A stretch of DNA of 64,000 bases from Escherichia coli (GTDB lineage Bacteria; Pseudomonadota; Gammaproteobacteria; Enterobacterales; Enterobacteriaceae), in assembly GCF_001677475.2 (NCBI RefSeq), contig NZ_CP015229.1. The stretch is one strand, 5' to 3'. A program made the position numbers and the translations under genes. How positions within the stretch are numbered: the stretch's first letter is position 1; every line of letters begins with the position of its first letter. Under the pieces are notes generated by a model. That model was given only the letters and a program-made list of their open reading frames with translations, had not been told where the DNA came from and searched no databases. Shown one piece after another: positions 4,926-31,986 of the stretch.

Positions 4926-5013
<88 letters not shown>

Positions 5014-5134
5014 TCTAACTCATTGTTTAAACTAAAATAATATTTTTATTATCGTTTAATTCAAACTTATTAAGCCTGCCGGTGATACGCTTCAGAACAT
5101 CCTGATTATTGTCGCTACTTATATCGTTCACCCT

Positions 5135-14558: not shown

Positions 14559-14596
14559 GGTGTTTGGGTGAGTTAAGGGGTGAATGTGATGAATGT

Positions 14597-15705: not shown

Positions 15706-15793
15706 TTACCGTGCCGGAAAATTTTTTAATATAAAACAAAGAATTGTTTTTCAGGCGGAAAATCCATTTCCGCTATGGGGGAAGGAATGGTCA

Positions 15794-16513: not shown

Positions 16514-16593
16514 CGCAACCTCGTCTCGGTATTTAGGTGGGTTACTCCGGTAAAGCGGTTAACAGGCGGCAAAACTTTAATCGCCTGCGCAAA

Positions 16594-17331
16594 TTACTCC
16601 GCGCCTACCGTCGTCACCACGCCGCTTTCCGCCACCATCGCGCTGATGACCCGCTGGCTGCTGGCGTTACGTACTTTCACCATCTCGCCTTTGCGACCAT
16701 TTTTCAGCGCCACGCCGGGCATCGAGGCGGTGATCCCCGCGTTCTGGAAAACAATCATCACCGGCTGATCGCGCTCGACCAGCACCGGAGACACCAGTTC
16801 TTCTTTGGTAAGCGGCCTGCCTGGTTGCAGCGCGTGCTTACTGCTTAAACCAATCGCGTCATCGAGCTCCATCAACACATCGCGACGCTGGGCGCTGACG
16901 TTGTAGGGCTTCAGCTCCACATCATTCGCGGTGAGAGGCGTATCGCGGGCAATCAGTGACTTCGCCATCACCACCGGCACCAGAACATCCGGGCGCACCG
17001 CCACGTTCATCTGCCAGCTTTGCGGGCAACTGACGGTGAAGTTCATGCGGTTGAGGGCGATTTCCGCAGGCGATGTCAGCGTGACGCCGGGTGTTGTAAT
17101 ACAGGGCGCGGCGGTCGCAATCTGCGACGGAATATAGACCTTAAAGGTGTAGCGATAGTCATGCCATTGCCGCTGTTGCGCCAGCGATTCAATTTCCTGG
17201 CTCGCGGCATTCAGCACCTGGGCGTTGACTTGTTCCCGCGCGCTGTGTTGCACGGGGTGGACGGCGGCGTAGCCCGGTAAGGCCAGCACCAGGAGGAAGA
17301 ACAACTTCCGCCTGCAAAATTGAAAACTCAT
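16594..17331 (-). CDS. lfgA: Flagellar basal-body P-ring formation protein FlgA homolog
   Basis: 245 aa with signal peptide; divergent from flgB homolog. Confidence 0.75.
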   Translation of the reverse strand: MSFQFCRRKLFFLLVLALPGYAAVHPVQHSAREQVNAQVLNAASQEIESLAQQRQWHDYRYTFKVYIPSQIATAAPCITTPGVTLTSPAEIALNRMNFTVSCPQSWQMNVAVRPDVLVPVVMAKSLIARDTPLTANDVELKPYNVSAQRRDVLMELDDAIGLSSKHALQPGRPLTKEELVSPVLVERDQPVMIVFQNAGITASMPGVALKNGRKGEMVKVRNASSQRVISAMVAESGVVTTVGAE

Positions 17332-17360: not shown

Positions 17361-17377
17361 TGGCACGGCGATTGCTT
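17361..17377 (+). promoter_or_regulatory. Candidate sigma-54 promoter (TGGCAC-N5-TTGCT) for lfgBCDEFG
   Basis: tggcacggcgattgctt ~35 bp upstream of lfgB start; LafK is a sigma-54 activator. Confidence 0.6.
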
Positions 17378-17412
17378 AGCGTATGCGTATTGAAGCAGGA
17401 GTGACGCAGGAA

Positions 17413-17748
17413 ATGGGGATCAGTTTTCAACAGGCATTGGGAGTGCATCCGCAGGCAGTGAAGTTACGTCTTGAGAGGACCGAGCTACTGACTGCGAATC
17501 TGGCGAATGTCGATACGCCAAATTTCAAGGCTAAAGATATTGATTTTGCCAGGGAGATGCAACGGGCAAATAACGTGGCGGTGGATGTCCAGTACCGCGT
17601 GCCGATGCAGCCGTCGGAAGATGGCAACACCGTGGAACTGAACAGCGAACAGGCGCGGTTTTCACAAAATAGTATGGATTATCAAAGCAGTTTGACCTTT
17701 CTGAATCTGCAAATTAGCGGCATCAGAGAGGCCATTGAAGGGAAATAA
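17413..17748 (+). CDS. lfgB: Flagellar basal-body rod protein FlgB homolog
   Basis: ANLANVDTPNFKAKDIDF rod-protein N-terminal motif; start set to ATG 17413. Confidence 0.85.
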   Translation: MGISFQQALGVHPQAVKLRLERTELLTANLANVDTPNFKAKDIDFAREMQRANNVAVDVQYRVPMQPSEDGNTVELNSEQARFSQNSMDYQSSLTFLNLQISGIREAIEGK

Positions 17749-17750
17749 GC

Positions 17751-18182
17751 ATGTCATTTACTGATATCTATCAGATTTCCGGCTCGGCGATGACGGCGCA
17801 AACGCTACGTCTGAATACCGTCGCCAGTAACCTGGCGAATGCTAATGCGCCCGCCAGCAGCGAGGCGCAGGCGTATAAAGCGCGCAGCCCGGTGTTTGCG
17901 GCGGTGTATCACCACAGCTTGCTGGCGGGTACACATCGTCATGCCATTGACGGTGCCAGCGTGCAGGTGCAGGACGTGCTGCAAACCGGCGGGGCGGTGA
18001 AACGCTATGAACCGCATTCACCTCTGGCGGATGCTAACGGGGATGTCTGGTATCCCGACGTCAACGTGGTGGAACAGATGGCGGACATGATGTCGGCTTC
18101 GCGCGATTTTGAAACCAACGTCGATGTGCTCAACAACGTGAAAAGTATGCAGCAAAGTTTGCTGAAACTGGGAGAAGCCTGA
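17751..18182 (+). CDS. lfgC: Flagellar basal-body rod protein FlgC homolog
   Basis: 143 aa; SNLANANA motif. Confidence 0.85.
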   Translation: MSFTDIYQISGSAMTAQTLRLNTVASNLANANAPASSEAQAYKARSPVFAAVYHHSLLAGTHRHAIDGASVQVQDVLQTGGAVKRYEPHSPLADANGDVWYPDVNVVEQMADMMSASRDFETNVDVLNNVKSMQQSLLKLGEA

Positions 18183-18895
18183 TGAATACCCTGGCGCTGA
18201 ATGCGCAATCGCCGCAGCCGACCGCCACGGCGGAAAGCAATAATGTGGCGGCCAGCGACACGACAAGCAGCAGCGATAGCTCGCCCGTCGATACCTTCCT
18301 GACGCTGTTTGTCGCCGAGATCCAAAACCAGGACCCGACCGACCCAACCGACGCCACCGAATATATCGACCAGCTTTCGTCGATGGCGCAGGTGGCGATG
18401 ATGGAAGAGATGAGCGTGCAGGCCAACACCAACGCGGTGCTGATGAGCAACATTCAGGTGATGGCGCTCGGCAACCTGGTGGGCGACGACATTATGGTAC
18501 AGACCTCCGCCTTGCAGGTAAGCGACCAGACTATTAACGGTCGCGCCACGCTGGACGATGCCTGTACCACTGCCGATCTCCACTTTACCGATGCCGCAGG
18601 CGATGACTACACCGTTTCTCTGATCCCGCAGGGCAGTTCGTCTGTCGGGCCAGGCCAGGTCGATTTCTCGATTAATCCGGCGGATTACGGTATCCCGCCG
18701 GGCGATTACGACGTCTCGGTAGTCACCAACACCGGGGAAGAAGAGGTGCCGATTGAAGTCTCCGGCGAAGTGGAAGATGTGCGCATCCCGCTCGACGGCA
18801 GCTCTCCGGTGCTCAACGTTGCAGGCGTCGGCGAAGTGCCGTTCACCATGATTAGCCAGTTTGGCGTACCCGATGCCGACAGTGATGTGGCGTGA
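18182..18895 (+). CDS. lfgD: Flagellar hook assembly protein FlgD homolog
   Basis: FLTLFVAEIQNQDPTDP FlgD N-terminal motif. Confidence 0.8.
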   Translation: MNTLALNAQSPQPTATAESNNVAASDTTSSSDSSPVDTFLTLFVAEIQNQDPTDPTDATEYIDQLSSMAQVAMMEEMSVQANTNAVLMSNIQVMALGNLVGDDIMVQTSALQVSDQTINGRATLDDACTTADLHFTDAAGDDYTVSLIPQGSSSVGPGQVDFSINPADYGIPPGDYDVSVVTNTGEEEVPIEVSGEVEDVRIPLDGSSPVLNVAGVGEVPFTMISQFGVPDADSDVA

Positions 18896-18911
18896 TGTCC
18901 GGTGCCAAATT

Positions 18912-18993
18912 GCCTGATGCGCTTCGCTTATCAGGCCTACATGAATCTGCATGGTTTTGTAGGCCGGATAAGGTGTTCACGCCGCATCCGGCA
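18912..18993. repeat. REP/BIME palindromic units
   Basis: cctgatgcgcttcgcttatcaggcctac ... ggccggataaggtgttcacgccgcatccggc. Confidence 0.8.
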
Positions 18994-19038
18994 AAACAAC
19001 GGGCACGCTGTCAAAATTTGAATTAACAGGAAGACACA

Positions 19039-20241
19039 ATGAGTTATGAAATTGCCGCAACGGGGCTGAATGCCGTTAACGAACAGCTGGACGGGATCAG
19101 TAACAACATCGCCAACGCCGGAACGGTGGGCTATAAGTCGATGACCACCCAGTTTTCCGCCATGTATGCCGGAAGTCAGGCGATGGGCGTCAGCGTGGCG
19201 GGCACCGCGCAAAGCATTTCGCGCGGCGGTTCGCTGGTCTCCACCGGTAACGCGCTCGATTTAGCGATTAACAACGATGGCTTTTTTGTTACCTGCGACA
19301 GCGCGGGCAACATTTCCTACACCCGCGCCGGATCGTTTGAAACCGACAAAAACGGCTATATCGTCAACGCCTCAGGCGCTTATTTGCAGGGCTACCCGGT
19401 CGATGACAGCGGCACTTTGCAAACCGGTACAGTCACAGATATCCAGATCAAAACCGGTAATATTCCGGCGCAGGCCAGCAGCAGCCTGACTTTTACCGCT
19501 AACTTCAACGCCAGCGATGAAGCTATCGACCGCACCACCGTACCGTTCGACCCGACCAACAGCAGCTCGTACACCGACAGCTACACCACCACGGTGTATG
19601 ACTCATTAGGCAACGAACATTCGGTATGCCAGTACTTCACCAAAACCAGCGATAACACCTGGGAAGTACAGTACACCTTCGACGGTCAGCAGCAGACCGG
19701 CGTTCCGGCGACGACGTTAACCTTCGACCCGAACACCGGGAAGCTGACTTCGCCAACCACGCCGCAGACCATTGAGTTTCAGACCGACGCAGCCGCACCC
19801 ATCGACTTAACCGTCGATTACTCGACCTGTACGCAATACGGCTCGGACTTCTCGGTCACCACCAACTCTGCCAACGGCTACGCTTCCGCGACTCAAAACG
19901 GTGTGCAGGTCGATGACGATGGCAAAGTTTACGCTACCTACAGCAACGGCGAGCGCATGTTGCAGGGGCAGGTGGTGCTGGCGACCTTCCCGAATGAAAA
20001 CGGCCTGGAGGCAGTGAGCGGCACCGCGTGGGTACAAACGGGCGAATCCGGCACCCCGCTGATTGGCGTTCCCGGCTCCGGCACCTGCGGCACGCTGTCG
20101 TCGGGCGTGCTCGAAAGCTCTAACGTCGATATCACCAGCGAACTGGTCAACCTGATGACCGCCCAGCGTAACTATCAGGCCAACACCAAAGTTATCGCTA
20201 CCAGCACGCAGCTCGATGACGCGCTGTTCCAGGCAATGTAA
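19039..20241 (+). CDS. lfgE: Flagellar hook protein FlgE homolog
   Basis: 400 aa; conserved flg N- and C-terminal helices. Confidence 0.85.
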   Translation: MSYEIAATGLNAVNEQLDGISNNIANAGTVGYKSMTTQFSAMYAGSQAMGVSVAGTAQSISRGGSLVSTGNALDLAINNDGFFVTCDSAGNISYTRAGSFETDKNGYIVNASGAYLQGYPVDDSGTLQTGTVTDIQIKTGNIPAQASSSLTFTANFNASDEAIDRTTVPFDPTNSSSYTDSYTTTVYDSLGNEHSVCQYFTKTSDNTWEVQYTFDGQQQTGVPATTLTFDPNTGKLTSPTTPQTIEFQTDAAAPIDLTVDYSTCTQYGSDFSVTTNSANGYASATQNGVQVDDDGKVYATYSNGERMLQGQVVLATFPNENGLEAVSGTAWVQTGESGTPLIGVPGSGTCGTLSSGVLESSNVDITSELVNLMTAQRNYQANTKVIATSTQLDDALFQAM

Positions 20242-20978
20242 TGGATCGCTTGATTTATACCGCCCTGAGCGGTGCTTCTCAGACCCTGTACGAGCAGCAG
20301 ATTAGCGCAAACAACCTGGCGAACGTCAACACCAATGGTTTTCGCGCCGATATGGCAATGGCAACCAACGACAAGGTGAAAGGCGGCGGCTTCGACACGC
20401 GCTATATGGCGCAGGAAGGGGCCAGCGGCGTGAACGACAGCACGGGTGTAGCGGAGAAAACCGAACGCCCGCTGGACGTGGCGATTCAGGGCGCGGGTTA
20501 CATTGCGGTGCAGGATAAAAACGGCAACGAAGTTTATACCCGCAACGGCAACATTCAGCAGGACGACCAGGGTCAACTGACTATCGACGGCAATCTGGTG
20601 CTGGGGGATAACGGGCCGATCATTCTGCCGCCGAACGCCATTGCTTCGTTTGGCAGCGACGGCACGTTGTCGGTGACGCCCGATGACGGCGACGTGACCG
20701 CGACGATGGATATCGACCGCCTGAAGCTGGTGGATATTCCGGTCGCTAACCTGGCGAAAAACGGCGAAGGGATGCTGGTAACTGCCGACGGCGTACCGGC
20801 TCAGCGCGATGAAAACATCAAAGTTAGCGGTGGTTTTCTGGAGGGCAGTAACGTCTCGGCGGTGAGTGAGATGATGTCGTCCATCGCCATGAACCGCCAG
20901 TTCGAAGCGCAGATCAAGATGATGAAAACCGCCGAAGATATCAGCGACGCGGGCAACCGCTTATTGCGCGGCTCGTAA
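20241..20978 (+). CDS. lfgF: Flagellar basal-body rod protein FlgF homolog
   Basis: 245 aa rod protein. Confidence 0.8.
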   Translation: MDRLIYTALSGASQTLYEQQISANNLANVNTNGFRADMAMATNDKVKGGGFDTRYMAQEGASGVNDSTGVAEKTERPLDVAIQGAGYIAVQDKNGNEVYTRNGNIQQDDQGQLTIDGNLVLGDNGPIILPPNAIASFGSDGTLSVTPDDGDVTATMDIDRLKLVDIPVANLAKNGEGMLVTADGVPAQRDENIKVSGGFLEGSNVSAVSEMMSSIAMNRQFEAQIKMMKTAEDISDAGNRLLRGS

Positions 20979-20985
20979 CCGCACA

Positions 20986-21122
20986 TCGTAGGCCGGATAA
21001 GGCGTTCACGCCGCATCCGGCAGTTATGCGGTGGCGCCTGATGCGACGCTTTGCGTCTTATCAGGCCTACAAGCCTGTGCCCAAACCGTAGGCCGGATAA
21101 GGCGTTCACGCCGCATCCGGCA
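20986..21122. repeat. Cluster of REP/BIME palindromic units (at least three)
   Basis: Repeated ggccggataaggcgttcacgccgcatccggca and gcctgatgcgacgctttgcgtcttatcaggcctac. Confidence 0.85.
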
Positions 21123-21156
21123 ATCGGCGGCAAAAAACAACACGGAATTTACCACC

Positions 21157-21942
21157 ATGAACGCAGCACTATGGAGCAGCAAAACCGGCCTCTCAGCGCA
21201 GGATGCTGAAATGAGCGCGATTGCCAACAACATCGCCAACGTTAACACCACCGGCTTCAAGCGTGACCGGGTGATGTTTCAGGATCTGTTCTACCAGACC
21301 CAGGAAGCGCCGGGCGCGATGCTCGACCAGAACAACATCATGCCGACCGGGCTGCAATTCGGTAGCGGCGTGCGCATTGTCGGCACCCAAAAAACCTTCA
21401 CCGAAGGCAACGTCGAAACCACCGACAACGCGATGAATGTCGCCATTATGGGGCAGGGGTTTTTGCAGGTGCAAAAGGCTAATGGCGATATCGCCTATAC
21501 CCGCGACGGCAATTTGCAGGTGAACGCCGACGGCGTACTGACCAACTCGCAGGGCTTGCCGTTGCAGCCGGAAATCGATGTTCCGGCGGGGGCGACCAAT
21601 GTTGCGTTTGGCGAAGATGGTACGGTGACGGCGATTCTTCCTGGCGACAGCGACGTGACCGAGTTAGGGCAACTGACGCTGGTTAACTTCGCTAACCCGG
21701 CGGGGCTTTCCGCTGAGGGTGACAACCTCTATCTGGAAACCGCCGCCAGCGGTCAGCCGACCGAAGGTGTGCCGGGCGAAGATGGGCTTGGCACTTTGCA
21801 GGACAATGCACTGGAAGGCTCGAACGTGGATATCGTCAACGAAATGGTGGCGATGATTACGGTGCAACGCGCGTACGAGATGAACGCCAAAATGGTGTCG
21901 GCAGCGGACGATATGTTGCAGTACATCAGCCAGACGCTGTAA
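21157..21942 (+). CDS. lfgG: Flagellar basal-body rod protein FlgG homolog
   Basis: Start set to internal ATG (MNAALWSSKTGLSAQ...); upstream extension in ORF track reads through REP cluster. Confidence 0.85.
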   Translation: MNAALWSSKTGLSAQDAEMSAIANNIANVNTTGFKRDRVMFQDLFYQTQEAPGAMLDQNNIMPTGLQFGSGVRIVGTQKTFTEGNVETTDNAMNVAIMGQGFLQVQKANGDIAYTRDGNLQVNADGVLTNSQGLPLQPEIDVPAGATNVAFGEDGTVTAILPGDSDVTELGQLTLVNFANPAGLSAEGDNLYLETAASGQPTEGVPGEDGLGTLQDNALEGSNVDIVNEMVAMITVQRAYEMNAKMVSAADDMLQYISQTL

Positions 21943-21947
21943 GGGCG

Positions 21948-22082
21948 TGGGGGCAATGTGTGGCCTGATGCCCTCACCCCGGCCCTCTCCCACAGGGAGA
22001 GGGAGAAAAGCGGCGCACGATGTAACAACGCGCACAGGTCAGTCCCCTCGCCCCTTCGGGGAGAGGGTTAGGGTGAGGGGGA
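21948..22082. repeat. GC-rich ~130-bp nested-palindrome intergenic repeat, copy 2
   Basis: Near-identical to copies at 14597 and 24236. Confidence 0.8.
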
Positions 22083-22148
22083 ACAAACAGCTCCGCACCC
22101 ACCAAACAACCGGCCACCCCGTGGCCTGCAACACTAAACAGGCAGAAC

Positions 22149-22814
22149 GTGAAAAATTATCTCTGGCTGGTGGCACTGCTTCCCCTGCTTAGCGGGTGTG
22201 AATCGCAGGCTATTCTGGTCAAAAAAGACGACGCATACTTTGCGCCACCGAAAACCGAAGCGCCGCCTCCGGCAGACGGGCGTGCCGGAGGCGTGTTTGA
22301 AACTGGCTACAACTGGTCGCTCACCGCCGACCGACGAGCTTACCGTGTGGGCGATATCCTGACGGTGATTCTCGAAGAATCGACCCAGTCGAGCAAACAG
22401 GCGAAAACCAACTTTGGCAAAAGCAACAGTGTCGATATCACCGCGCCAACGGTATTCGGTCACACCAAAAATAAGCTTTCCGGTTCCATCGACGCCAACC
22501 GCGACTTTGACGGCAGCGCCACCTCCCAGCAGCAGAATAGCCTGCGCGGGGAGATCACCGTTTCCGTCCATGCGGTGCAGCCCAACGGCATCCTGGAAAT
22601 TCGCGGCGAGAAATGGCTCACCCTCAACCAGGGTGATGAGTACATCCGCTTGAGCGGCCTGGTACGCGCCGATGATATCCAGAACGACAACTCGGTTTCC
22701 TCCCAGCGGATCGCCGATGCCCGCATCTCCTATGCCGGACGCGGCGCGTTAAGCGACGCCAACGCCGCAGGTTGGCTGACGCGGCTGTTTAACCATCCTC
22801 TGTTCCCGATTTAA
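22149..22814 (+). CDS. lfgH: Flagellar L-ring lipoprotein FlgH homolog
   Basis: Lipobox LLSGC after signal peptide; GTG start. Confidence 0.85.
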
Positions 22815-23929
22815 TGCCGGAGAGTGCAATGCAAAACTGGATAAAGACGGTGATGATCGCCGTAAGCCTGGTGCTGCCCGGCGTGGCGCTGGCGCAATCG
22901 CTGGAGTCGCTGGTCAACGTACAGGGCGTGCGTGAAAACCAACTGGTCGGCTATAGCCTGGTGGTCGGCCTTGACGGCACTGGCGATAAAAACCAGGTCA
23001 AATTCACTAACCAGACCATCACCAATATGCTGCGCCAGTTTGGCGTGCAACTGCCGAATAAAATCGACCCGAAGGTGAAAAACGTCGCCGCGGTGGCGGT
23101 GAGCGCCACGCTGCCGCCGATGTACTCGCGCGGGCAAACCATTGACGTCACCGTCTCGTCGATTGGCGATGCCAAAAGTATTCGCGGCGGCACTTTGCTG
23201 CTGACCCAACTGCACGGCGCAGATGGCGAAGTTTATGCCCTGGCGCAGGGTAGCGTGGTGGTCGGCGGGATGAATGCCACCGGGGCCAGCGGCTCAAGCG
23301 TAACGGTTAATACGCCAACCGCCGGGTTAATTCCCAACGGCGCGACGGTGGAGCGCGAGATCCCCAGCGATTTTCAGATGGGCGATACCATCACCCTCAA
23401 CCTGAAACGTCCGTCGTTTAAAGATGCCAACCACATTGCAGCAGCGATCAACGCCTCGTTTGGCGGCATCGCCACCGCGCAGAGTTCCACCAACGTTACC
23501 GTGCGTGCCCCCACCAGCCCCGGCGCGCGGGTGGCGTTTATGTCGCAACTGGATGATGTGCAGGTGCAGGCGGAGAAAATCCGCGCCCGCGTGGTGTTTA
23601 ACTCACGCACCGGCACGGTGGTAATGGGTGACGGTATCGCGTTGCATGCGGCGGCGGTGTCGCACGGCAGTCTTACTGTCTCGATTAACGAAACCAGCAA
23701 CGTCAGCCAGCCGAATGCCTTTGCCGGTGGGCGCACGGCGGTGACGCCGCAGAGCAATATCGCGGTGAATCATGCGCGCCCTGGCGTGGTGAGCTTGCCG
23801 GAGTCGAGCAGCCTGAAAACGCTGGTGAATGCCCTGAACAGTTTAGGCGCAACGCCGGACGACATTATGTCGATTTTGCAGGCGCTGCATGAAGCGGGCG
23901 CGCTGGATGCCGACCTGGAGGTGATCTGA
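22814..23929 (+). CDS. lfgI: Flagellar P-ring protein FlgI homolog
   Basis: 371 aa with signal peptide. Confidence 0.85.
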
Positions 23930-24228
23930 TGAAAGTGAACGCCAGCGGTGGGATTGACGGCAGCGACGCGTTAATGGGGCCGAAGGTTCAGGCCAATGAT
24001 ATCAAGCAGGCCGCGGAACAGTTCGAGGCGATTTTTTTACGCAACATGTTGAAAGAGATGCGTAAAACCAACGAGTTGTTTGATTCGAAAGATAACCCAT
24101 TTAACAGCGATTCGGTGCGCATGATGCAGGGGTTTTATGACGATGAGTTGTGTAACACCCTGGCGCAGCAGCACGGGATTGGGATTGCGGCGATGATTGT
24201 AAAGCAGTTGTCGCCGAAGGGGAAATGA
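23929..24228 (+). CDS. lfgJ: Short FlgJ-like rod-binding protein (no muramidase domain)
   Basis: 99 aa, position between flgI and flgK homologs. Confidence 0.65.
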   Translation: MKVNASGGIDGSDALMGPKVQANDIKQAAEQFEAIFLRNMLKEMRKTNELFDSKDNPFNSDSVRMMQGFYDDELCNTLAQQHGIGIAAMIVKQLSPKGK

Positions 24229-24235
24229 GGGGAGG

Positions 24236-24366
24236 TGCACGCTGATGCCCTCACCCCGGCCCTCTCACTAGGAGAGGGAGCAGACTGGTGCCGTATTTAA
24301 CAATGTGCTCGATCGGTCCCCTCTCCCTTGAGGGAGAGGGTTAGGGTGAGGGGGCAATGCGCCCAC
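24236..24366. repeat. GC-rich ~130-bp nested-palindrome intergenic repeat, copy 3
   Basis: Near-identical to copies at 14597 and 21948. Confidence 0.8.
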
Positions 24367-24436
24367 CATTACCCACTTAAGAATCCACAACCTAACGCCG
24401 CTTTTAACCGGCACGATTTACCGGTAAGGATCCAAC

Positions 24437-25804
24437 ATGGACATGATTAACATCGGCTACAGCGGCGCATCAACGGCGCAGGTGGAGCTGAACGTCACGG
24501 CGCAAAACACCGCTAACGCCATGACCACGGGCTATACCCGCCAGGTGGCGGAGATCAGCACCATCGGTGCCAGCGGCGGTTCGCCGAACAGCGCCGGTAA
24601 CGGCGTACAGGTGGACAGCATTCGCCGCGTCTCCAACCAGTATCAGGTGTGGTATGCCGCCAGCGATTACGGCTATTACAGCACCCAGCAGGGGTATCTC
24701 AGCCAACTGGAAGCGGTACTAAGCGACGATAACAGCAGCCTGAGCGGCGGCTTCGATAACTTCTTCGCCGCCCTTAACGAAGCGACCACCAGCCCCGATG
24801 ATTCCGCCCTGCGCGAGCAGGTGATCAGCGAAGCCGGGGCGCTGTCGTTGCGTATCGATAACACGCTCGATTACGTCGACTCGCAAAGCACGGAAATCAT
24901 CAGCCAGCAGCAGGCGATGGTGTCGCAAATCAATACGCTCACCAGCGGCATCGCCAGCTATAACCAGCAAATCGCTCAGGCCGAAGCCAACGGCGATAAC
25001 GCCTCCGCGCTGTACGACGCCCGCGACCAGATGGTGGAAGAACTCAGCGGGATGATGGATGTGCAGGTCAATATCGACGACCAGGGCAACTACAACGTCA
25101 CCCTGCAAAACGGTCAGCCGCTGGTGAGCGGGCAGCAAAGCTCGACCATCGCGCTGGAAACCAACGCCGATGGCACGCCGACCATGTCGCTGACGTTCGC
25201 TGGCACCACCTCGACGATGACCACCGACACCGGCGGTTCATTAGGCGCACTGTTTGATTATCAAAACGATGTGCTGTCGCCGCTAACCGACACCATCAAC
25301 AGCATGGCGTCGCAGTTCGCCGATGCGGTCAACAACCAGCTGGCGCAGGGCTACGATCTCAACGGTAACCCCGGCGAGCCGCTGTTTATTTACGATGCCA
25401 GTAATGCCGATGGCCCGCTGACCGTCAACCCGGATATCACCGCCGACGAACTGGCGTTCTCCAGTTCGCCGGACGAAAGCGGCAACAGCGACAACCTGCA
25501 GGCGCTGATCAACATCTCCACCGAACCGCTGGAGATAGCCAACCTTGGCAGCGTGACGGTTGGGCAGGCGTGCTCGTCAATCATCAGCAATATCGGCATT
25601 TACAGTCAGCAAAATCAGACGGAAGTCGATGCCGCGTCCAATGTCTATTCCGCAGCGCAAAACCAGCAGAGCAGCGTCAGCGGCGTCAGCATGGACGAAG
25701 AGGCGGTGAACCTGATCACTTATCAACAAATTTATGAAGCCAATCTGAAAGTCATTTCCGCCGGGGCCGAGATTTTCGATTCGGTGCTGGAAATGTGCAG
25801 CTAA
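24437..25804 (+). CDS. lfgK: Flagellar hook-associated protein 1 FlgK homolog
   Basis: 455 aa; flg N-terminal helix motif. Confidence 0.8.
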   Translation: MDMINIGYSGASTAQVELNVTAQNTANAMTTGYTRQVAEISTIGASGGSPNSAGNGVQVDSIRRVSNQYQVWYAASDYGYYSTQQGYLSQLEAVLSDDNSSLSGGFDNFFAALNEATTSPDDSALREQVISEAGALSLRIDNTLDYVDSQSTEIISQQQAMVSQINTLTSGIASYNQQIAQAEANGDNASALYDARDQMVEELSGMMDVQVNIDDQGNYNVTLQNGQPLVSGQQSSTIALETNADGTPTMSLTFAGTTSTMTTDTGGSLGALFDYQNDVLSPLTDTINSMASQFADAVNNQLAQGYDLNGNPGEPLFIYDASNADGPLTVNPDITADELAFSSSPDESGNSDNLQALINISTEPLEIANLGSVTVGQACSSIISNIGIYSQQNQTEVDAASNVYSAAQNQQSSVSGVSMDEEAVNLITYQQIYEANLKVISAGAEIFDSVLEMCS

Positions 25805-26748
25805 GCGGGAGCGCGAAAATGCGAGTAACCACCCAACAAACCTACGTCTCGATGACGCAAAGTTTTAATAATCTCTCCGGCGATCTGGCGCATGTGGTCG
25901 AGCAGATGGCAACCGGTAAGGAAATTTTGCAGCCGTCCGATGACCCGATCGCCGCCACGCGCATCACCCAGTTAAACCGCCAGCAGTCAGCGATTGAGCA
26001 GTATCAGAGCAATATCGACTCCGCGTCGGCGGGGTTAAGTCAGCAGGAGTCGATTCTTGATGGCGTCAACAACAGCCTGCTGGCGGTGCGCGATGACCTG
26101 CTGGAAGCGGCGAACGGCACCAATACTGCCGACTCGCTCGCAAGCTTCGGGCAGGATATTGAGTCGCTCACCGAATCAATGGTCGCGGCGCTGAACTATC
26201 AGGACGAAGACGGGCATTACGTGTTTGGCGGCACCATCAACGATCAGCCGCCGATTGTTGCGGTGGACGATGACGGCGATGGTGTCACCGACAGCTACAG
26301 CTATCAGGGCAACAGCGACCACCGCCAGACCACCGTGTCGAACGGCGTGGAAGTGGACACCAACGTGGCGGCGAGCGATTTCTTTGGCAGCAATTTAGAT
26401 GTGCTCAATACGCTGAATTCCCTGTCGCAGGAGCTGCAAAACCCGGACGTTGACCCCGCCGATCCGCAGGTGCAGAGCGATATTCAGAACGCCGTTGATG
26501 TGGTGGACACCGCCTCAGACAACCTCAATGCTTCGATTGCTTCGCTTGGCGAGACGCAGAATACCATGTCGATGTTGAGCGATGCGCAGACGGATATCTC
26601 TACTTCGAATGATGAGTTGATTGGCTCTTTACAGGATCTCGATTACGGCCCGGCGTCGATCACCTTTACCGGACTGGAAGTGGCAATGGAAGCTACCCTC
26701 AAGACTTACTCGAAAGTGAGTGAGTTGAATTTGTTCAGCGTTCTCTAA
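25795..26748 (+). CDS. lfgL: Flagellar hook-associated protein 3 FlgL homolog
   Basis: 317 aa flagellin-like terminal helices; alternative start ATG 25819. Confidence 0.75.
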   Translation: MQLSGSAKMRVTTQQTYVSMTQSFNNLSGDLAHVVEQMATGKEILQPSDDPIAATRITQLNRQQSAIEQYQSNIDSASAGLSQQESILDGVNNSLLAVRDDLLEAANGTNTADSLASFGQDIESLTESMVAALNYQDEDGHYVFGGTINDQPPIVAVDDDGDGVTDSYSYQGNSDHRQTTVSNGVEVDTNVAASDFFGSNLDVLNTLNSLSQELQNPDVDPADPQVQSDIQNAVDVVDTASDNLNASIASLGETQNTMSMLSDAQTDISTSNDELIGSLQDLDYGPASITFTGLEVAMEATLKTYSKVSELNLFSVL

Positions 26749-26764
26749 CTCTTTCAGGAACAGT

Positions 26765-27742
26765 ATGCAGGTCGGACTTACATCTTCATCACTCGCCACC
26801 GGCGGGGCGCATAGCGCTGCGGTATCGTCGTCAACCGTTGCGCCCACTCAGGCGGTGCGGCAAAAGCTCCCGGCGACGGCGAGTGAATATCCGGCCTCGC
26901 CGCTGATTACCACTCGCCCGCAGCGTTACAGCGTGCAGCTTAACGATCAGCTCACCACGTTGCAGCAGGCGGATCACTATCTCGGGCAACTGGAGCAGCA
27001 GTTGCTCGATTACCGTCACAGCCAGCGTAAGGGCGGGCAGGCGCAGAGTACGGCGCTGATGCAGATGCTGGACAAACGCACCGCGCTTTCCGGCGGTGCG
27101 GTGGACCGTCAGTTGCAGCCGGTGTTGCAGGGGGAAGCGCGGGTGACCTTTCACTCGCCGGATCTGGCGAGTCTGGTGCACAACCCCACGCCGGGAACGC
27201 GGATGTTCAGTGTCTCTGACGGGCGGCAGACCCAGCTTTCGGCGGTGATGCTGTCTGAGGATGACAGCGCTGGGCAGTACCAGACGCGGCTGACCAACGC
27301 CCTGCGCCGCGTGGGCGTGCAACTGCATCAGCAAGCGGACGGCATCAGCTTCTCCACCACTGAAAAACAGTGGCCCCATATCGAGCGCACCTTAAGCGTG
27401 CGCACCGATGGTGATAAGTCGGCGTTTATGCCGCTAAAAACCTTTGCCGAACCATCACAGGCGGACCGCTTTGCGCAAAGCCTGCAACAGGGTGGGGCGG
27501 GGATTTCCCAGACGTTAGAAGGCATTAATCAGCAGCGCGCGCAGATGGCGGTGCAGCAGGAAAAAGCCCGCCAGTTGATCGACGGCATGTCACGCTTCCC
27601 GCAAACGGAAAACGCGGTGCAGGCATCGGAGAACCTTGGCGGCGTGCTGGATAGCGCCAATCATAACTATCATGTTTTATTGCAGGCGGTGAACGGTCAG
27701 GCGCGAATTTCCAGCCAGACGGTGAGGAATTTATTGGGGTAA
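26765..27742 (+). CDS. lafW: Lateral flagellar protein LafW-like, function unknown
   Basis: 325 aa, Gln-rich; position after flgL homolog. Confidence 0.5.
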   Translation: MQVGLTSSSLATGGAHSAAVSSSTVAPTQAVRQKLPATASEYPASPLITTRPQRYSVQLNDQLTTLQQADHYLGQLEQQLLDYRHSQRKGGQAQSTALMQMLDKRTALSGGAVDRQLQPVLQGEARVTFHSPDLASLVHNPTPGTRMFSVSDGRQTQLSAVMLSEDDSAGQYQTRLTNALRRVGVQLHQQADGISFSTTEKQWPHIERTLSVRTDGDKSAFMPLKTFAEPSQADRFAQSLQQGGAGISQTLEGINQQRAQMAVQQEKARQLIDGMSRFPQTENAVQASENLGGVLDSANHNYHVLLQAVNGQARISSQTVRNLLG

Positions 27743-27747
27743 TTATC

Positions 27748-27788
27748 GGTTGGCCGGATAAGACGCCTTTAGCGTCGCATCCGGCATA
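27748..27788. repeat. REP palindromic unit
   Basis: ggccggataagacgcctttagcgtcgcatccggca. Confidence 0.75.
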
Positions 27789-27800
27789 TATTGGCACTTG

Positions 27801-28643
27801 TCAGCATTTCTGCACAGTATTTAACAACTTCTCTAAATTCTGATACATCGCGCTATTAATATCGCTGTTCTGCCACTCATCCACATTAAAGGTTAATTGC
27901 CAGCTGCCGTTGCACTGGTTACGCAGAACAATATCGCTTTCCAGTCGGTTACGAACATATTTATAATAGGTTGTCATTGTCATATTATGCGCTGACAATA
28001 AATTATCGAGTTTGTCTTTTCCTGGTGCAAGGGTTTGTGAAAGTAACGGTGCGGAGTTATTTTCTTTTCCAGAACTAAGATGAAATATTTTTATTCTTGG
28101 ACTGTTAATTGACTCTTTTACCAGTTGCGGGGCGTCAGGTGTATTTTTCAAGTGTGAATATCCCACGGTCGAGCCAATAAATATAACAGCTGCGGCTAAC
28201 GCTACCCCCATTATTCCTTTATGTTTTTTTCTAACAGGCACAGGCGGTGTTGTCGAAGATATCTCTTCTGGCACAGTTCCCTGTATCTGGTCGGTAATAA
28301 TCATCGCTTCTGCAGGCGATGACTCCGGCAAAGACACATACTCTTTATTGCACAAGTAACCTTTCTTCGGAATTGTTTTAATAATGTTCTGTTGTTTGCC
28401 ATCATCGTCGATAGCAACCCGCAACGCATGGATCGCCGTCGGCAGGCTGTTTCCGCCGACAATGCGGTTCTTCCATACTTCGGCACATAAATAAGATCGC
28501 GATAAAACCACATCGGCATTTTTTGCTAATGTTTCCAGCAAAATAAAATGGTATTCGCCGAGACGACGTGTTTCACCCGTTTCGCAATGTATTAAGGCAT
28601 TAAGCGACGGGTCCATCCGCCAGTTGTTGATAATAATACTCAT
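27801..28643 (-). CDS. lafZ: ToxR/CadC-like membrane-anchored transcriptional regulator (winged-helix DNA-binding domain + single TM)
   Basis: OmpR/PhoB-type wHTH-like N-term, TM segment GVALAAAVIFIGSTVGY; start set to internal ATG (MSIIINNW...). Confidence 0.6.
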   Translation of the reverse strand: MSIIINNWRMDPSLNALIHCETGETRRLGEYHFILLETLAKNADVVLSRSYLCAEVWKNRIVGGNSLPTAIHALRVAIDDDGKQQNIIKTIPKKGYLCNKEYVSLPESSPAEAMIITDQIQGTVPEEISSTTPPVPVRKKHKGIMGVALAAAVIFIGSTVGYSHLKNTPDAPQLVKESINSPRIKIFHLSSGKENNSAPLLSQTLAPGKDKLDNLLSAHNMTMTTYYKYVRNRLESDIVLRNQCNGSWQLTFNVDEWQNSDINSAMYQNLEKLLNTVQKC

Positions 28644-29128
28644 AGTTGAGTTTACCTTAGCAAGGGATAAATGTTTCCTGATAGTGCTTTGCATAAAGCA
28701 CAGTCTTATACGTCCCTGAGAAGATGATTTTTCTGCGTGATAATTAATATTTTATGGTAATAGGATTATTCTTAATCACTATATGGCGTGGAAATGTAAC
28801 GAAATGACAGGATAGGTACAATAGCCAAATGTGTACTATTTGCAACGCAATGTAAATTTTGGCATCAGTACATTGAGAAGAAAACGCGTTAATTGATGGT
28901 AATCTTAACTATATCAAGCGTTTGATAAAGACATATTTTGATACCTGGCCATGTGGCAGATATTGCTAATAATCTTTTTATCTGAATTTAAACTCTGCTT
29001 TCTTTTAGCTAAAAGTGGCATCGGATAATACGTAGCGAATTTTTTTCATAGCGGTTTTAAGTTTGCTCCCGAGGTGTCGTTTTTACAGGGTATCGAAACG
29101 AAAACGATTAATCCCAAGGAGCAGTATC

Positions 29129-30043
29129 ATGTTATCTATTAACACCAATAACGCCTCAATGGCCGCCGTTAATGCAATCAGCAAAAGCAGCTCTTCTCTG
29201 TCTACATCTATGGAACGCCTGGCAACGGGTAACCGGATTAACTCTTCAGCAGATGATGCGGCGGGCAAACAGATTGCTAACCGTTTAACTGCACAGTCCA
29301 GCGGTATGGGCGTGGCGCTGAGCAACATTAACGATGCCACCGCGATGCTGCAAACCGCTGACAGCATGTTCGACGAAATGTCTGACGTGCTGGGGCGTAT
29401 GAAAGACCTGTCAACTCAGGCAGCGAACGGCACCTACAGCGACGACGACCTGCAGGCGATGCAGGACGAATACGACGAACTGGGTCAGCAGATGTCTGAC
29501 ATGCTGCAAAACACCACCTACGGCGGCACCAACCTGTTCGGTGTTTCCGGCACCAGCAACACCGGTACTGACGGCTTGTTCCAGAGCGCGGTAACTTTCC
29601 AGGTGGGCGCGGAATCTTCTGACACCATGACCGTGAATATTTCAAGCCAACTGAATACGCTGGTGACTGACCTTTCTGCGATCAGCAACTCCTTTAGCGC
29701 GGATCAGGCAGACACCACGGGTACTGCGGGCGTTTCTGGCGGTACTGAACTGACCGCGTCTGGCTCGGCTAACCAGATGATCACCAGCATTTCTACCGCG
29801 ATGGATGATGTTTCTCAGATCCAGTCCAAGCTGGGTGCGTCTATCAACCGTCTGAACGATACCGCCAACAACCTGACCAGTATGCAGGACAACACCGAAG
29901 TCGCTATCGGTAACATTATGGATACCGACTACGCGACGGAAGCGTCCAACATGACCAAACAGCAGGTGCTGATGCAGACCGGCATCACCATGCTGAAACA
30001 GTCCAACAGCATGTCCAGCATGGTTTCCAGCCTGCTGCAGTAA
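29129..30043 (+). CDS. lafA: Lateral flagellin LafA
   Basis: Flagellin N-term (NTNNASMAAVNAISKSSSSL) and C-term (LMQTGITMLKQSNSMSSMVSSLLQ); RBS aagga before ATG 29129. Confidence 0.9.
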   Translation: MLSINTNNASMAAVNAISKSSSSLSTSMERLATGNRINSSADDAAGKQIANRLTAQSSGMGVALSNINDATAMLQTADSMFDEMSDVLGRMKDLSTQAANGTYSDDDLQAMQDEYDELGQQMSDMLQNTTYGGTNLFGVSGTSNTGTDGLFQSAVTFQVGAESSDTMTVNISSQLNTLVTDLSAISNSFSADQADTTGTAGVSGGTELTASGSANQMITSISTAMDDVSQIQSKLGASINRLNDTANNLTSMQDNTEVAIGNIMDTDYATEASNMTKQQVLMQTGITMLKQSNSMSSMVSSLLQ

Positions 30044-30048
30044 TGGCG

Positions 30049-30088
30049 GACTTGCCGGATGCGGCGTGAACGCCTTATCCGGCCTACA
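30049..30088. repeat. REP palindromic unit
   Basis: gccggatgcggcgtgaacgccttatccggcctac. Confidence 0.8.
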
Positions 30089-30092
30089 AACA

Positions 30093-30121
30093 ACACCGCC
30101 TGTGGGCGGTGTTGTGCTTTT
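30093..30121 (+). terminator. Candidate rho-independent terminator after lafA
   Basis: Hairpin acaccgcc-tgtg-ggcggtgt followed by T-rich tract. Confidence 0.6.
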
Positions 30122-30203
30122 GGCGGCAGGCTTTTTTCCGTCGAACCGGAAACACGCTTTCCGCCTCATTTTTCAATCTCTTGATTATTCACATAAAAAT
30201 TAT

Positions 30204-30218
30204 TGGCACGCCTTTTGC
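30204..30218 (+). promoter_or_regulatory. Candidate sigma-54 promoter (TGGCAC-N5-TTGC) upstream of lafB
   Basis: tggcacgccttttgcc ~30 bp upstream of lafB start. Confidence 0.55.
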
Positions 30219-30250
30219 CAATAACCTGACATCGTTATCCGGAGTCATCA

Positions 30251-31982: not shown

Positions 31983-31986
31983 TGCC

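What the first reader, a model, noticed from the sequence alone, without database searches (positions are those of the whole stretch)
17361..30218. Sigma-54 promoter candidates in front of lfgB and lafB, and a receiver-less LafK
Near-consensus TGGCAC-N5-TTGC elements occur at 17361-17377 (before lfgB) and 30204-30218 (before lafB). A weaker GG-N10-GC element (cggttttaagtttgct, 29052-29067) lies before lafA. LafK (5135-6121) starts directly in its AAA+ domain with no receiver domain, suggesting control through expression level or a partner rather than phosphorylation.
Basis: partly seen in the sequence, partly recalled or inferred. Interest (0 to 1): 0.4.

Follow-up and report, generated by a model that had tools for sequence, protein, structure and literature searches.

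The report
LafK/sigma-54 promoters of Flag-2 flagella
The two strong sigma-54 promoter motifs in this second (Flag-2) flagellar gene cluster are real and conserved, a third lies before a flagellin-modification operon, and each sits behind the same conserved palindrome that is probably where the receiver-less activator LafK binds, so the wiring is the expected kind with one new detail.

Summary
The window holds an Escherichia Flag-2 (lateral-type) flagellar locus. TGGCAC-N5-TTGC is present at the stated coordinates, before lfgB and lafB. These are the only two exact matches in 64 kb, and they are conserved in every enterobacterial Flag-2 locus I fetched (29 lfgB, 25 lafB; flagellar-protein identity down to about 30-55%).

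All three promoters carry the palindrome GGAA-N7-TTCC 40-51 nt upstream, with spacings across relatives that differ by about one helical turn. The lafB and lafV copies also have an IHF-like site in between. The same module precedes flgB_L on a Vibrio-type contig. This is probably the LafK enhancer. I found no description of it in the searchable literature.

The weak GG-N10-GC before lafA is chance-level and not conserved. It overlaps the -35 box of a conserved sigma-28-type promoter, which is also found before lfgM.

LafK is receiver-less in all orthologues, as already published. No sigma-54 motif precedes lafK or lfiM.

Verdict: an expected LafK/sigma-54/sigma-28 hierarchy, with new cis-element detail. 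Modest interest.

The parts
5135..6121 (+). lafK: receiver-less sigma-54 enhancer-binding protein (AAA+ domain, lid, HTH_8)
   Evidence: Pfam finds Sigma54_activat at residues 6-172, AAA_lid_14 at 178-246 and HTH_8 at 284-317. The protein has GAFTGA at 81-86, Walker A GETGAGKE and Walker B LLLDE, and stop codons in frame upstream. Orthologues are 325-348 aa without a receiver. The HTH sequence LGITPRALRYRLASMR is invariant.
17361..17376 (+). Sigma-54 promoter of lfgBCDEFGHIJKL(-lafW): TGGCACGGCGATTGCT, predicted transcription start near 17387
   Evidence: It matches the consensus at 12 of 12 positions and is conserved in 29 of 29 enterobacterial loci at a fixed offset.
17295..17313 (+). Candidate LafK enhancer for lfgB: GGAAGAACAACTTCCGCCT, 51 nt before TGGCAC, lying inside the lfgA signal-peptide codons
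   Evidence: The exact palindrome is present in 29 of 29 relatives, with gaps of 51-55 or 61 nt, even where LfgA identity is only 27-40%.
17413..17748 (+). lfgB coding region with a revised start (ATG 17413 rather than 17383)
   Evidence: The predicted transcription start lies downstream of 17383. AGGAG sits 10 nt before 17413. The Vibrio FlgB_L aligns from residue 11.
30204..30219 (+). Sigma-54 promoter of lafBCDEF-lafS-lafTU: TGGCACGCCTTTTGCC, predicted transcription start near 30230
   Evidence: It matches the consensus at 11 of 12 positions and is conserved in 25 of 25 loci that contain lafB.
30148..30166 (+). Candidate LafK enhancer for lafB: GGAAACACGCTTTCCGCCT, 41 nt before TGGCAC
   Evidence: The exact palindrome is present in 25 of 25 relatives, with gaps of 39-45 nt.
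30174..30186 (-). IHF-consensus site (AATCAAGAGATTG = WATCAANNNNTTR) between the enhancer and the lafB promoter
   Evidence: In relatives the site is perfect in 9 of 26 modules and within one mismatch in 15 of 26, at a fixed offset. Shuffled gaps give 0.6% and 12%.
15701..15716 (-).
   Evidence: It matches the consensus at 11 of 12 positions. It is conserved in 17 of 19 loci that have a lafV homologue.
15753..15771 (-). Candidate LafK enhancer for lafV: GGAAATGGATTTTCCGCCT, 40 nt before the promoter
   Evidence: The palindrome is exact in 16 of 17 relatives and has one mismatch in the other, with gaps of 40-41 or 49-51 nt.
15734..15746 (+). IHF-like site (AAACAAAGAATTG, one mismatch) between the enhancer and the lafV promoter
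   Evidence: All 17 relatives have a site within one mismatch, at offset -30 or -31 in 14 of them.
14737..15666 (-). lafV: FliB-like flagellin lysine-N-methylase (309 aa from ATG 15666), first gene of the third sigma-54 unit
   Evidence: NCBIfam NF038110 matches with E 8e-13, below the curated cut-off. De Maayer 2020 names these genes of variable region 1 (VR1) LafV.
12114..14630 (-). GT2-family glycosyltransferase (838 aa) downstream of lafV, probably co-transcribed with it
   Evidence: Pfam Glycos_transf_2; NCBIfam.
29057..29083 (+). Sigma-28 (LafS)-type promoter of lafA: TTAAGTTT-N11-GTCGTTTT.
   Evidence: The element is conserved across genera together with an upstream A/T tract. The derived pattern occurs only twice in the window, against 0.19 expected.
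16552..16579 (-). Sigma-28 (LafS)-type promoter of lfgMN: TAAAGTTT-N12-ACCGCTTT
   Evidence: This is the second and only other match to the lafA-derived pattern. It is conserved in relatives.
30092..30121 (+). Intrinsic terminator of lafA (AACACCGCC-TGTG-GGCGGTGTT followed by GTGCTTTT), which separates lafA from the lafB unit
   Evidence: Read from the sequence. The stem is conserved in 13 relatives.
33851..34567 (+). lafS: sigma-28-family sigma factor inside the lafB transcription unit
   Evidence: Pfam Sigma70_r2 and Sigma70_r4.
4749..5134 (.). The lfiM-lafK divergent intergenic region: AT-rich, carries REP elements, and has no sigma-54 motif or palindrome (predicted class 1 control region)
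   Evidence: The REP element is repeated across E. coli genomes.

Best explanation
The locus is wired as a three-tier lateral-flagella hierarchy.

Tier 1. The lafK-lfiEFGHIJ and lfiMNPQR-lfhBA operons are transcribed from the AT-rich divergent region 4749-5134 without sigma-54.

Tier 2. LafK has only an AAA+ domain and an HTH, and no sensory domain. I propose that it binds as a dimer, through its invariant HTH, to the palindrome GGAA-N7-TTCC placed 40, 51 or 61 nt upstream of three sigma-54 promoters. The intervening DNA is bent, with IHF-consensus sites at lafB and lafV, so that the LafK hexamer can contact sigma-54 holoenzyme through GAFTGA and open the promoters. The three units are:
- lfgB-L(-lafW): rod, hook and junction proteins.
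- lafB-F-lafS-lafTU: cap, chaperones, sigma-28 and stators.
- lafV plus a glycosyltransferase: flagellin modification.

Tier 3. LafS (sigma-28), made from the lafB unit, then transcribes lafA (flagellin) and lfgMN from TTAAGTTT-N11/12-G(T/C)CG(T/C)TTT promoters.

Because LafK has no receiver, the input must act on lafK transcription or through a partner protein.

Shown here: the motifs, their conservation, their spacing, and the domain content of LafK. Inferred: binding of LafK and IHF, dependence on rpoN, and the assignment of genes to tiers.
For: 1. The three best sigma-54 matches in 64 kb (12/12, 11/12, 11/12) all lie just upstream of Flag-2 genes on the correct strand.

2. They are conserved with variable spacers in 29/29 (lfgB), 25/25 (lafB) and 17/19 (lafV) enterobacterial loci. 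No conserved motif lies upstream of lfgA, lfgM, lafZ, lafW, lfgK, lfgE, lafC, lafS or lafA; a 9-10/12 match upstream of lfgN in one Citrobacter subgroup falls inside lfgM coding sequence.

3. GGAA-N7-TTCC occurs 4 times in the window against 1.0 expected. Three of these are 40-51 nt upstream of the three promoters. The 19-mer GGAA-N7-TTCCGCCT matches exactly 3 times, each in the promoter's orientation.

4. An unbiased scan for the composite (sigma-54 match of at least 10/12 plus an exact palindrome 30-70 nt upstream) found:
- 3 hits in the window, against 0.01 expected;
- hits in the 32 enterobacterial loci only at lfgB, lafB and lafV;
- no hits in the 44 non-enterobacterial loci.

5. The spacings cluster at about 40-45, 49-55 and 61 nt, which is helical phasing.

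6. The lfgB palindrome is kept inside lfgA coding sequence even at 27-40% LfgA identity.

7. The same module (GGAAGTTTGGCTTCC, a 41-nt gap containing a perfect IHF consensus, then TGGCACG) precedes flgB_L on a contig carrying the exact 19-mer published as the predicted RpoN site of V. parahaemolyticus flgB2. That gene is down-regulated in a delta-rpoN strain and its promoter shifts in an RpoN EMSA (PMC9817140).

8. LafK has GAFTGA and the Walker motifs. Its HTH is invariant in orthologues at 59-83% identity, while the linker is hypervariable.

9. The published hierarchy for Vibrio and Aeromonas lateral flagella is LafK/sigma-54 for class II genes, including fliA_L, and then sigma-28 for class III.

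10. The sigma-28-type pattern is found only before lafA and lfgM.
Against: - There is no experimental data for this organism or for any enterobacterial Flag-2 promoter.
- LafK binding to the palindrome is inferred only from co-location and co-conservation. Another protein could bind there.
- The related loci share ancestry, so the conservation counts are not independent events.
- The distance from palindrome to promoter is short (centre near -75) compared with many enhancers of sigma-54 activators.
- In V. parahaemolyticus, an RpoN-only EMSA was reported positive for lafA and negative for lafB. That is the opposite of what I predict here, although sigma-54 alone is a weak test.
- The -10 box of the proposed sigma-28 promoter (GTCGTTTT) departs from GCCGATAA.
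- The promoters of lafK, lfiM and lfgA were not identified.
- Key papers (Ren 2005, Stewart & McCarter 2003, Wilhelms 2013) could not be read.
Confidence: 0.75

Rival explanations
1. The sigma-54 promoters are real, but the GGAA-N7-TTCC palindrome is not the LafK site. It could be bound by another factor (for example the ToxR-like LafZ or a host regulator), or it could act as an RNA hairpin or terminator. LafK would then bind elsewhere or act from solution.
For: The lafB copy was flagged as terminator-like, with a stem followed by a T-rich tail. The lafV copy sits just after the lfgN stop codon. No binding data exist. Some activators of this class (FlgR, FleT) work without binding DNA.
Against: The lfgB copy lies antisense inside the lfgA coding sequence, where a terminator makes no sense. 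The arms are only 4-6 bp. The distance to the promoter is fixed and phased by about 10.5 bp. LafK keeps an invariant HTH. The element never occurs apart from a sigma-54 promoter more often than background.
Confidence: 0.15
2. The motifs are conserved relics in a silent, decaying locus. Flag-2 is inactive in some E. coli strains, such as 042, and the elements no longer drive transcription in this host.
For: Flag-2 loci are often disrupted, and about 22% lack genes. A 'non-functional' Flag-2 has been reported in enteroaggregative E. coli.
Against: Invariant core bases, variable spacers and maintained phasing across more than 10 genera show purifying selection on the cis-elements. Every Flag-2 gene I mapped in the window is an uninterrupted ORF. 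Flag-2 is expressed in Y. enterocolitica according to the literature cited.
Confidence: 0.07
3. lafA is also directly sigma-54-dependent, through the weak GG-N10-GC at 29052-29067, as the first reader suggested and as claimed for V. parahaemolyticus lafA.
For: The V. parahaemolyticus study predicted an RpoN site before lafA and saw an EMSA shift. GG and GC are present with the correct spacing.
Against: The motif scores 7/12, and 317 sites in the window are as good or better. GG and GC are both present only in this window among 20 relatives. No palindrome lies upstream of it. A conserved sigma-28-type promoter occupies the same DNA.
Confidence: 0.03

Closest known systems
LafK / sigma-54 / sigma-28 hierarchy of Vibrio parahaemolyticus (and Aeromonas hydrophila) lateral flagella
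   Same: The gene set and operon layout match. LafK is the sigma-54 activator of class II genes, which include the lateral sigma-28 gene, and the flagellin is a late sigma-28 gene. RpoN sites have been predicted before flgB2 and lafB. The same palindrome, IHF site and promoter module stands before flgB_L on the Vibrio-type contig.
   Different: The host is enterobacterial, with a peritrichous Flag-1 system in place of a polar flagellum. Here lafK and lfiM have no sigma-54 motif in five genera, whereas lafK and fliMN are reported down-regulated in a V. parahaemolyticus delta-rpoN strain. A flagellin-modification operon (lafV plus a glycosyltransferase) is attached to the regulon. No experiments exist for the enterobacterial promoters.
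PspF and the pspA promoter of E. coli (a sigma-54 activator without a sensory domain, type Ic)
   Same: PspF is about 325 aa, with an AAA+ domain and HTH_8 and no N-terminal regulatory domain. LafK matches PspF structures at E about 1e-53 and the PspF NCBIfam model over residues 3-325. The layout of upstream sites, an IHF site and a sigma-54 promoter is what I recall for pspA; this comes from my own knowledge and was not tested here. PspF activity is set by a partner protein (PspA) rather than by phosphorylation, again from my own knowledge.
   Different: LafK's AAA+ domain is closer in sequence to flagellar FlrC (E 5e-75) than to PspF. No PspA-like partner is evident in the locus. The recognition sequence differs.
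FlrC / FleR / FleQ flagellar sigma-54 activators
   Same: These are the best sequence matches among solved structures: V. cholerae FlrC AAA+ domain at E 5e-75 and FleQ at E about 5e-64. They also control flagellar rod and hook genes from sigma-54 promoters.
   Different: FlrC and FleR carry a phosphorylatable receiver and FleQ carries a FleQ-type N-terminal domain. LafK has neither.

Membership tests
Sigma-54 (RpoN)-dependent promoter | GG and GC dinucleotides exactly 10 nt apart within TGGCACG-N4-TTGCW | tested here: met
   The scores are 12/12 at 17361, 11/12 at 30204 and 11/12 at 15716 on the minus strand. The lafA candidate scores only 7/12.
Sigma-54 (RpoN)-dependent promoter | Placed on the coding strand a short distance upstream of the regulated gene | tested here: met
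   The predicted 5' UTRs are about 26 nt (lfgB, ATG 17413), 21 nt (lafB) and 24 nt (lafV).
Sigma-54 (RpoN)-dependent promoter | Core bases conserved at orthologous positions while the spacer varies | tested here: met
   The motif is present in 29/29, 25/25 and 17/19 loci. Nine control upstream regions lack a conserved motif; one further control, lfgN, shows a lineage-restricted 9-10/12 match inside lfgM coding sequence.
Sigma-54 (RpoN)-dependent promoter | A cognate activator ATPase with GAFTGA is available | tested here: met
   LafK has GAFTGA at 81-86 and the Walker A and B motifs.
Sigma-54 (RpoN)-dependent promoter | Transcription starts about 12 nt downstream of the GC and requires rpoN | not testable with these tools
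   This needs 5'-RACE and delta-rpoN reporters.
Sigma-54 activators without a sensory domain (type Ic: PspF, HrpR/S, LafK) | A central AAA+ sigma-54 interaction domain with GAFTGA | tested here: met
   PF00158 matches with E 6.5e-64 at residues 6-172.
Sigma-54 activators without a sensory domain (type Ic: PspF, HrpR/S, LafK) | No N-terminal receiver or sensory domain | tested here: met
   The AAA+ domain starts at residue 6 and the upstream frame has 8 stop codons. Orthologues are 325-348 aa. LafK is listed this way in PMC3162934.
Sigma-54 activators without a sensory domain (type Ic: PspF, HrpR/S, LafK) | A C-terminal HTH DNA-binding domain is retained | tested here: met
   HTH_8 lies at 284-317 and is invariant across orthologues.
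Enhancer (UAS) of a sigma-54 activator | A dyad-symmetric site at a fixed, helically phased distance upstream of each target promoter | tested here: met
   GGAA-N7-TTCC lies 40, 41 and 51 nt upstream in the window. Across 73 modules the gaps cluster at 39-45, 49-55 and 61 nt.
Enhancer (UAS) of a sigma-54 activator | Bound by the activator's HTH and required for activation | not testable with these tools
   This needs EMSA or footprinting and site mutagenesis.
IHF binding site | WATCAANNNNTTR between the enhancer and the promoter | tested here: inconclusive
   The site is perfect at lafB (30174-30186), has one mismatch at lafV and two at lfgB in the window. In relatives it is enriched at fixed offsets compared with shuffled gaps. 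The DNA is AT-rich and the loci are related, so this is suggestive only.
Sigma-28 (FliA/LafS) promoter | TAAAGTTT-N11-GCCGATAA | tested here: inconclusive
   The lafA element is TTAAGTTT-N11-GTCGTTTT (11/16) and the lfgM element is TAAAGTTT-N12-ACCGCTTT (12/16). The -35 box is good and the -10 keeps only the G.CG core. Both are conserved, and the pattern is unique to these two sites in the window.

The most novel reading that the evidence does not exclude
GGAA-N7-TTCC is the LafK recognition sequence, conserved from Vibrio to the Enterobacterales. Together with an IHF bend and strict helical phasing, it defines a compact 'proximal enhancer' module. That module lets the LafK regulon be read directly from any genome. 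It also shows that horizontally acquired flagellin-modification cargo (lafV and a glycosyltransferase in VR1) has been wired into the class II tier. Under this reading lafK itself sits outside sigma-54 control in enterobacteria.
Probability: 0.6. Interest if true: 0.45.

Novelty: new member of a known kind. Interest (0 to 1): 0.35.

Why it matters
Flag-2 is widespread in Enterobacterales: it was found in 1279 of 5426 complete E. coli genomes. Its regulation and function are essentially unstudied there.

A concrete cis-regulatory map turns 'is Flag-2 ever expressed, and under whose control?' into a few reporter and mutant experiments. The map has three parts:
- three LafK/sigma-54 promoters, each with a defined candidate enhancer;
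- two sigma-28-type promoters;
- a separate class 1 region in front of lafK.

It also points to where the environmental signal must enter. LafK has no sensor, so the signal must act on the lafK promoter or on a partner protein.

None of this overturns the accepted model for lateral flagella.

Tried and rejected
- Weak lafA sigma-54 motif: rejected. It scores 7/12, the window has 317 comparable sites, and it is not conserved.
- Sigma-54 motifs or palindromes in the lfiM-lafK intergenic region: none found in the window, Citrobacter, Leminorella, Pseudescherichia or Hafnia.
- A 9/12 motif on the minus strand inside lafK (5215-5200): not conserved.
- A fourth GGAA-N7-TTCC at 21570-21584: it lies in lfgG codons (PEIDVP), is kept in only 9 of 32 loci, and has no promoter nearby. 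I treat it as coincidental.
- The canonical sigma-28 consensus scan gave only scattered 12/16 hits. The informative pattern had to be derived from the lafA alignment.
- Y. pseudotuberculosis RpoN ChIP-seq paper: I could not link any site to Flag-2 genes from the text or supplements.
- Search of 50%-identity cluster representatives with LafK: dominated by generic sigma-54 activators, so Vibrio or Aeromonas LafK could not be picked out. Two short hits I followed were uninformative or belonged to a different flagellar cluster.
- Ren 2005, Stewart & McCarter 2003 and Wilhelms 2013 are not in the paper library. Earlier promoter predictions in those papers could not be checked.
- Literature searches for a LafK binding site or enhancer found nothing.

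Full report
**What the window is**

ORF listing and Pfam/NCBIfam scans show a complete Flag-2 (lateral-type) flagellar locus. The gene order is:
- lfhB...lfiM on the minus strand (596-4793).
- lafK-lfiEFGHIJ (5135-11597), followed by a TagD-like gene.
- The cargo region between gene clusters 1 and 2 (variable region 1, VR1), holding a GT2 glycosyltransferase (12114-14630, minus) and a FliB-like methylase, LafV (14737-15666, minus).
- lfgN, lfgM and lfgA on the minus strand (15794-17331).
- lfgB...lfgL and lafW (17413-27742).
- The ToxR-like lafZ (27801-28694, minus).
- lafA (29129-30043).
- lafBCDEF-lafS-lafTU (30251-36369).

The flanking core genes (pepD, frsA, phoE) and the locus itself are about 96.5% identical to E. 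coli. The closest LfgI proteins (99%) are from Pseudocitrobacter vendiensis and Escherichia whittamii. The host is therefore an Escherichia close to, but not typical of, E. coli. The region is present in 1279 of 5426 complete E. coli genomes.

**Checking the observation**

- The lfgB motif is TGGCACGGCGATTGCT at 17361-17376.
- The lafB motif is TGGCACGCCTTTTGCC at 30204-30219.
- The weak motif is cggttttaagtttgct at 29052-29067.
- TGGCAC-N5-TTGC occurs only at the first two places on either strand of the 64 kb window. The expectation is 0.2, and 4 of 100 shuffles reached 2.
- Scored against TGGCACG-N4-TTGCW, with GG and GC required, the window has one 12/12 site, two 11/12 sites and six 10/12 sites.
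It lies 35 nt before an ATG at 15666.

**Conservation of the promoters**

A genome-collection scan with LfgI returned 76 loci with 10-kb flanks. Of these, 32 are enterobacterial Flag-2 loci: Escherichia, Pseudocitrobacter, Citrobacter, Phytobacter, Enterobacter, Pseudescherichia, Leminorella, Rahnella, Rosenbergiella and Tatumella. I mapped genes on them by tblastn.

- A motif scoring at least 10/12 lies at a fixed offset before lfgB in all 29 loci that include that region.
- The same is true before lafB in all 25 loci that include lafB.
- In both cases the N4 spacer varies while the core stays fixed.
- The third motif is present before the lafV homologue in 17 of 19 loci.
- As controls, the upstream regions of lfgA, lfgM, lafZ, lafW, lfgK, lfgE, lafC, lafS and lafA show no conserved motif. 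Upstream of lfgN, seven Citrobacter loci and two Tatumella loci share a weaker 9-10/12 match at a fixed offset, which falls inside lfgM coding sequence and is absent from the other lineages.

The predicted transcription start for lfgB (about 17387) lies downstream of the first ATG of the ORF (17383). The real start codon is therefore ATG 17413, which has AGGAG 10 nt upstream. The Vibrio FlgB_L aligns from that residue.

**A shared upstream palindrome**

Aligning the lafA-lafB intergenic regions showed four features in order:
- a conserved intrinsic terminator for lafA (30092-30121);
- a conserved GGAA...TTCC dyad;
- an A/T-rich stretch matching the IHF consensus;
- the promoter.

The dyad recurs before the other two promoters. 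GGAA-N7-TTCC occurs four times in the window against 1.0 expected, and no shuffle out of 100 reached 4. Three of the four sit 41 nt (lafB), 51 nt (lfgB) and 40 nt (lafV) before the promoter 16-mer. The longer form GGAA-N7-TTCCGCCT matches exactly three times, each on the strand of its promoter.

In relatives the exact dyad is present upstream of 29/29 lfgB promoters, 25/25 lafB promoters and 16/17 lafV promoters. The remaining lafV copy has one mismatch. The inner seven bases vary freely.

I then ran an unbiased two-strand scan for the composite: a promoter match of at least 10/12 plus an exact dyad 30-70 nt upstream.
- The window gave 3 hits, against 0.01 expected from Markov-chain random sequences.
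- The enterobacterial loci gave hits only at these three gene positions.
- The 44 non-enterobacterial loci gave none.

The gaps fall into three classes: 39-45, 49-55 and 61 nt. These differ by about one helical turn. The lfgB dyad lies inside the signal-peptide codons of lfgA on the other strand. It is nevertheless retained where LfgA identity is only 27-40%, which argues for selection on the DNA itself.

**IHF-like sites**

The window has a perfect WATCAANNNNTTR at 30174-30186 (minus strand) in the lafB module. The lafV module has a one-mismatch site at the equivalent offset.

| Module | Perfect sites in relatives | Sites within one mismatch |
|---|---|---|
| lafB | 9 of 26 | 15 of 26 |
| lafV | 9 of 17 | 17 of 17 (14 at the same offset) |
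| Shuffled gaps | about 0.6% | about 12% |

The window's lfgB module has only a two-mismatch site. Because the DNA is A/T-rich and the loci are related, I treat IHF involvement as likely but unproven.

**Link to an experimentally studied system**

A V. parahaemolyticus study (PMC9817140) lists predicted RpoN sites before flgB2, lafA and lafB. It shows that these genes are down-regulated in a delta-rpoN strain.

Searching metagenome contigs for the published flgB2 19-mer found a 1.38-Mb contig on which that sequence stands just before a flgB_L-flgL_L cluster. Upstream of it, in order, are GGAAGTTTGGCTTCC, a 41-nt gap containing a perfect IHF consensus (TATCAATGATTTA on the opposite strand), and TGGCACGTATCTTGT. 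The module therefore predates the split between the Vibrio and enterobacterial lateral systems.

**LafK**

- Pfam places Sigma54_activat at residues 6-172, the AAA lid at 178-246 and HTH_8 at 284-317.
- GAFTGA (81-86), Walker A (GETGAGKE) and Walker B (LLLDE) are intact.
- The frame upstream of the ATG has eight stop codons.
- The full-length enterobacterial orthologues among the 120 closest database clusters are 324-348 aa and lack a receiver.
- In an alignment of 12 orthologues at 59-83% identity, the HTH sequence LGITPRALRYRLASMR is invariant and the preceding linker is hypervariable. This fits an invariant DNA target.
- Among solved structures, the AAA+ domain is closest to V. cholerae FlrC (E 5e-75), then NifA, NtrC1, FleQ and PspF.

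**Other promoters**

The lfiM-lafK divergent region (4749-5134) is A/T-rich and carries REP elements. It has no sigma-54 motif scoring 8/12 or better and no dyad. The same holds in Citrobacter, Leminorella, Pseudescherichia and Hafnia. I therefore predict that lafK and the export and basal-body operons are the sigma-54-independent top tier.

Before lafA, the conserved elements are an A/T tract and TTAAGTTT-N11-GTCGTTTT (29057-29083). A pattern derived from that alignment occurs at only one other place in the window: TAAAGTTT-N12-ACCGCTTT at 16579-16552 (minus strand), before lfgM, where it is also conserved. The expectation is 0.19, with P of about 0.02 for two or more matches.

These look like LafS (sigma-28) promoters with a divergent -10 box. 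They match the classical late genes, flagellin and the anti-sigma factor. It scores 7/12, like 317 other sites, and its GG and GC are both present in no other relative.

**Mechanism proposed**

1. Class 1: lafK and the basal-body genes are transcribed from an unidentified promoter.
2. Class 2: LafK binds the dyad. The DNA is bent, probably by IHF. The LafK hexamer remodels sigma-54 holoenzyme at three promoters, which make the rod and hook, the cap, chaperones, LafS and stators, and the flagellin-modifying enzymes.
3. Class 3: LafS transcribes lafA and lfgMN.

This is the Vibrio/Aeromonas lateral-flagella scheme described. Three details are, as far as I could find, not in the searchable literature:
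- a defined candidate enhancer;
- recruitment of the VR1 cargo operon into class 2;
- the absence of sigma-54 control of lafK in enterobacteria.

The older J. Bacteriol. papers could not be read, so some promoter predictions may already exist there.

**Verdict**

The two strong motifs and the receiver-less LafK are confirmed and fit a known kind of system. The weak lafA motif is not supported. The added value is the conserved enhancer-IHF-promoter module and the third promoter. Interest is modest (0.35). Novelty: new member of a known kind.

Noticed in passing
window 4919-5015 and 30047-30085: REP/BIME-type repeats (gccggatgcggcg...cttatccggcctac) sit in the lfiM-lafK intergenic region and just after the lafA stop codon. 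The first is repeated 4-49 times per E. coli genome. Some relatives carry extra copies after lafA.
   Followed up: partly
window 21570-21584: A fourth exact GGAA-N7-TTCC lies inside lfgG (codons PEIDVP). It is kept in 9 of 32 related loci, and no sigma-54 motif is nearby. It is probably a coding coincidence, but a further LafK site is not excluded.
   Followed up: partly
proteins P0056 and P0065: Two proteins of 462-463 aa are 69-72% identical to LafK across its whole length but also carry a receiver domain (PF00072). Both come from short ENA contigs. They may be receiver-bearing close relatives of LafK or assembly chimeras.
   Followed up: no
L082:8663-11038: In an unrelated flagellar cluster (GCA_047602045.1), two tandem receiver-less sigma-54 activators (408 and 345 aa) stand directly before fliE-fliJ. 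This resembles the FleQ/FleT arrangement.
   Followed up: no
window 27801-28694 (minus strand): LafZ has an N-terminal winged-helix Trans_reg_C domain (residues 42-114) and resembles CadC/ToxR-type regulators. It is a candidate for the missing top-tier input to lafK, and it diverges fast (35-98% identity among relatives).
   Followed up: no
window 11567-11995: A TagD-like glycerol-3-phosphate cytidylyltransferase gene overlaps the 3' end of lfiJ on the plus strand. It would be co-transcribed with the lafK-lfiE-J operon, so part of the flagellin-modification machinery may sit in a different regulatory tier from lafV and the glycosyltransferase.
   Followed up: no
L087:107-122: The Vibrio-type flgB_L promoter has TTGT rather than TTGC at the -12 element, yet it keeps the dyad, the IHF site and the 41-nt gap.
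   Followed up: partly
window 17151-17166 (minus strand): TGGCATGACTATCGCT (10/12, with TCGC in place of TTGC) lies inside the 5' part of the lfgA coding sequence, on the lfgA strand. The relatives scan covered only the first 60 nt of lfgA and did not reach this site, so its conservation was not checked. No dyad lies upstream of it. The promoter of lfgA itself was not identified.
   Followed up: partly
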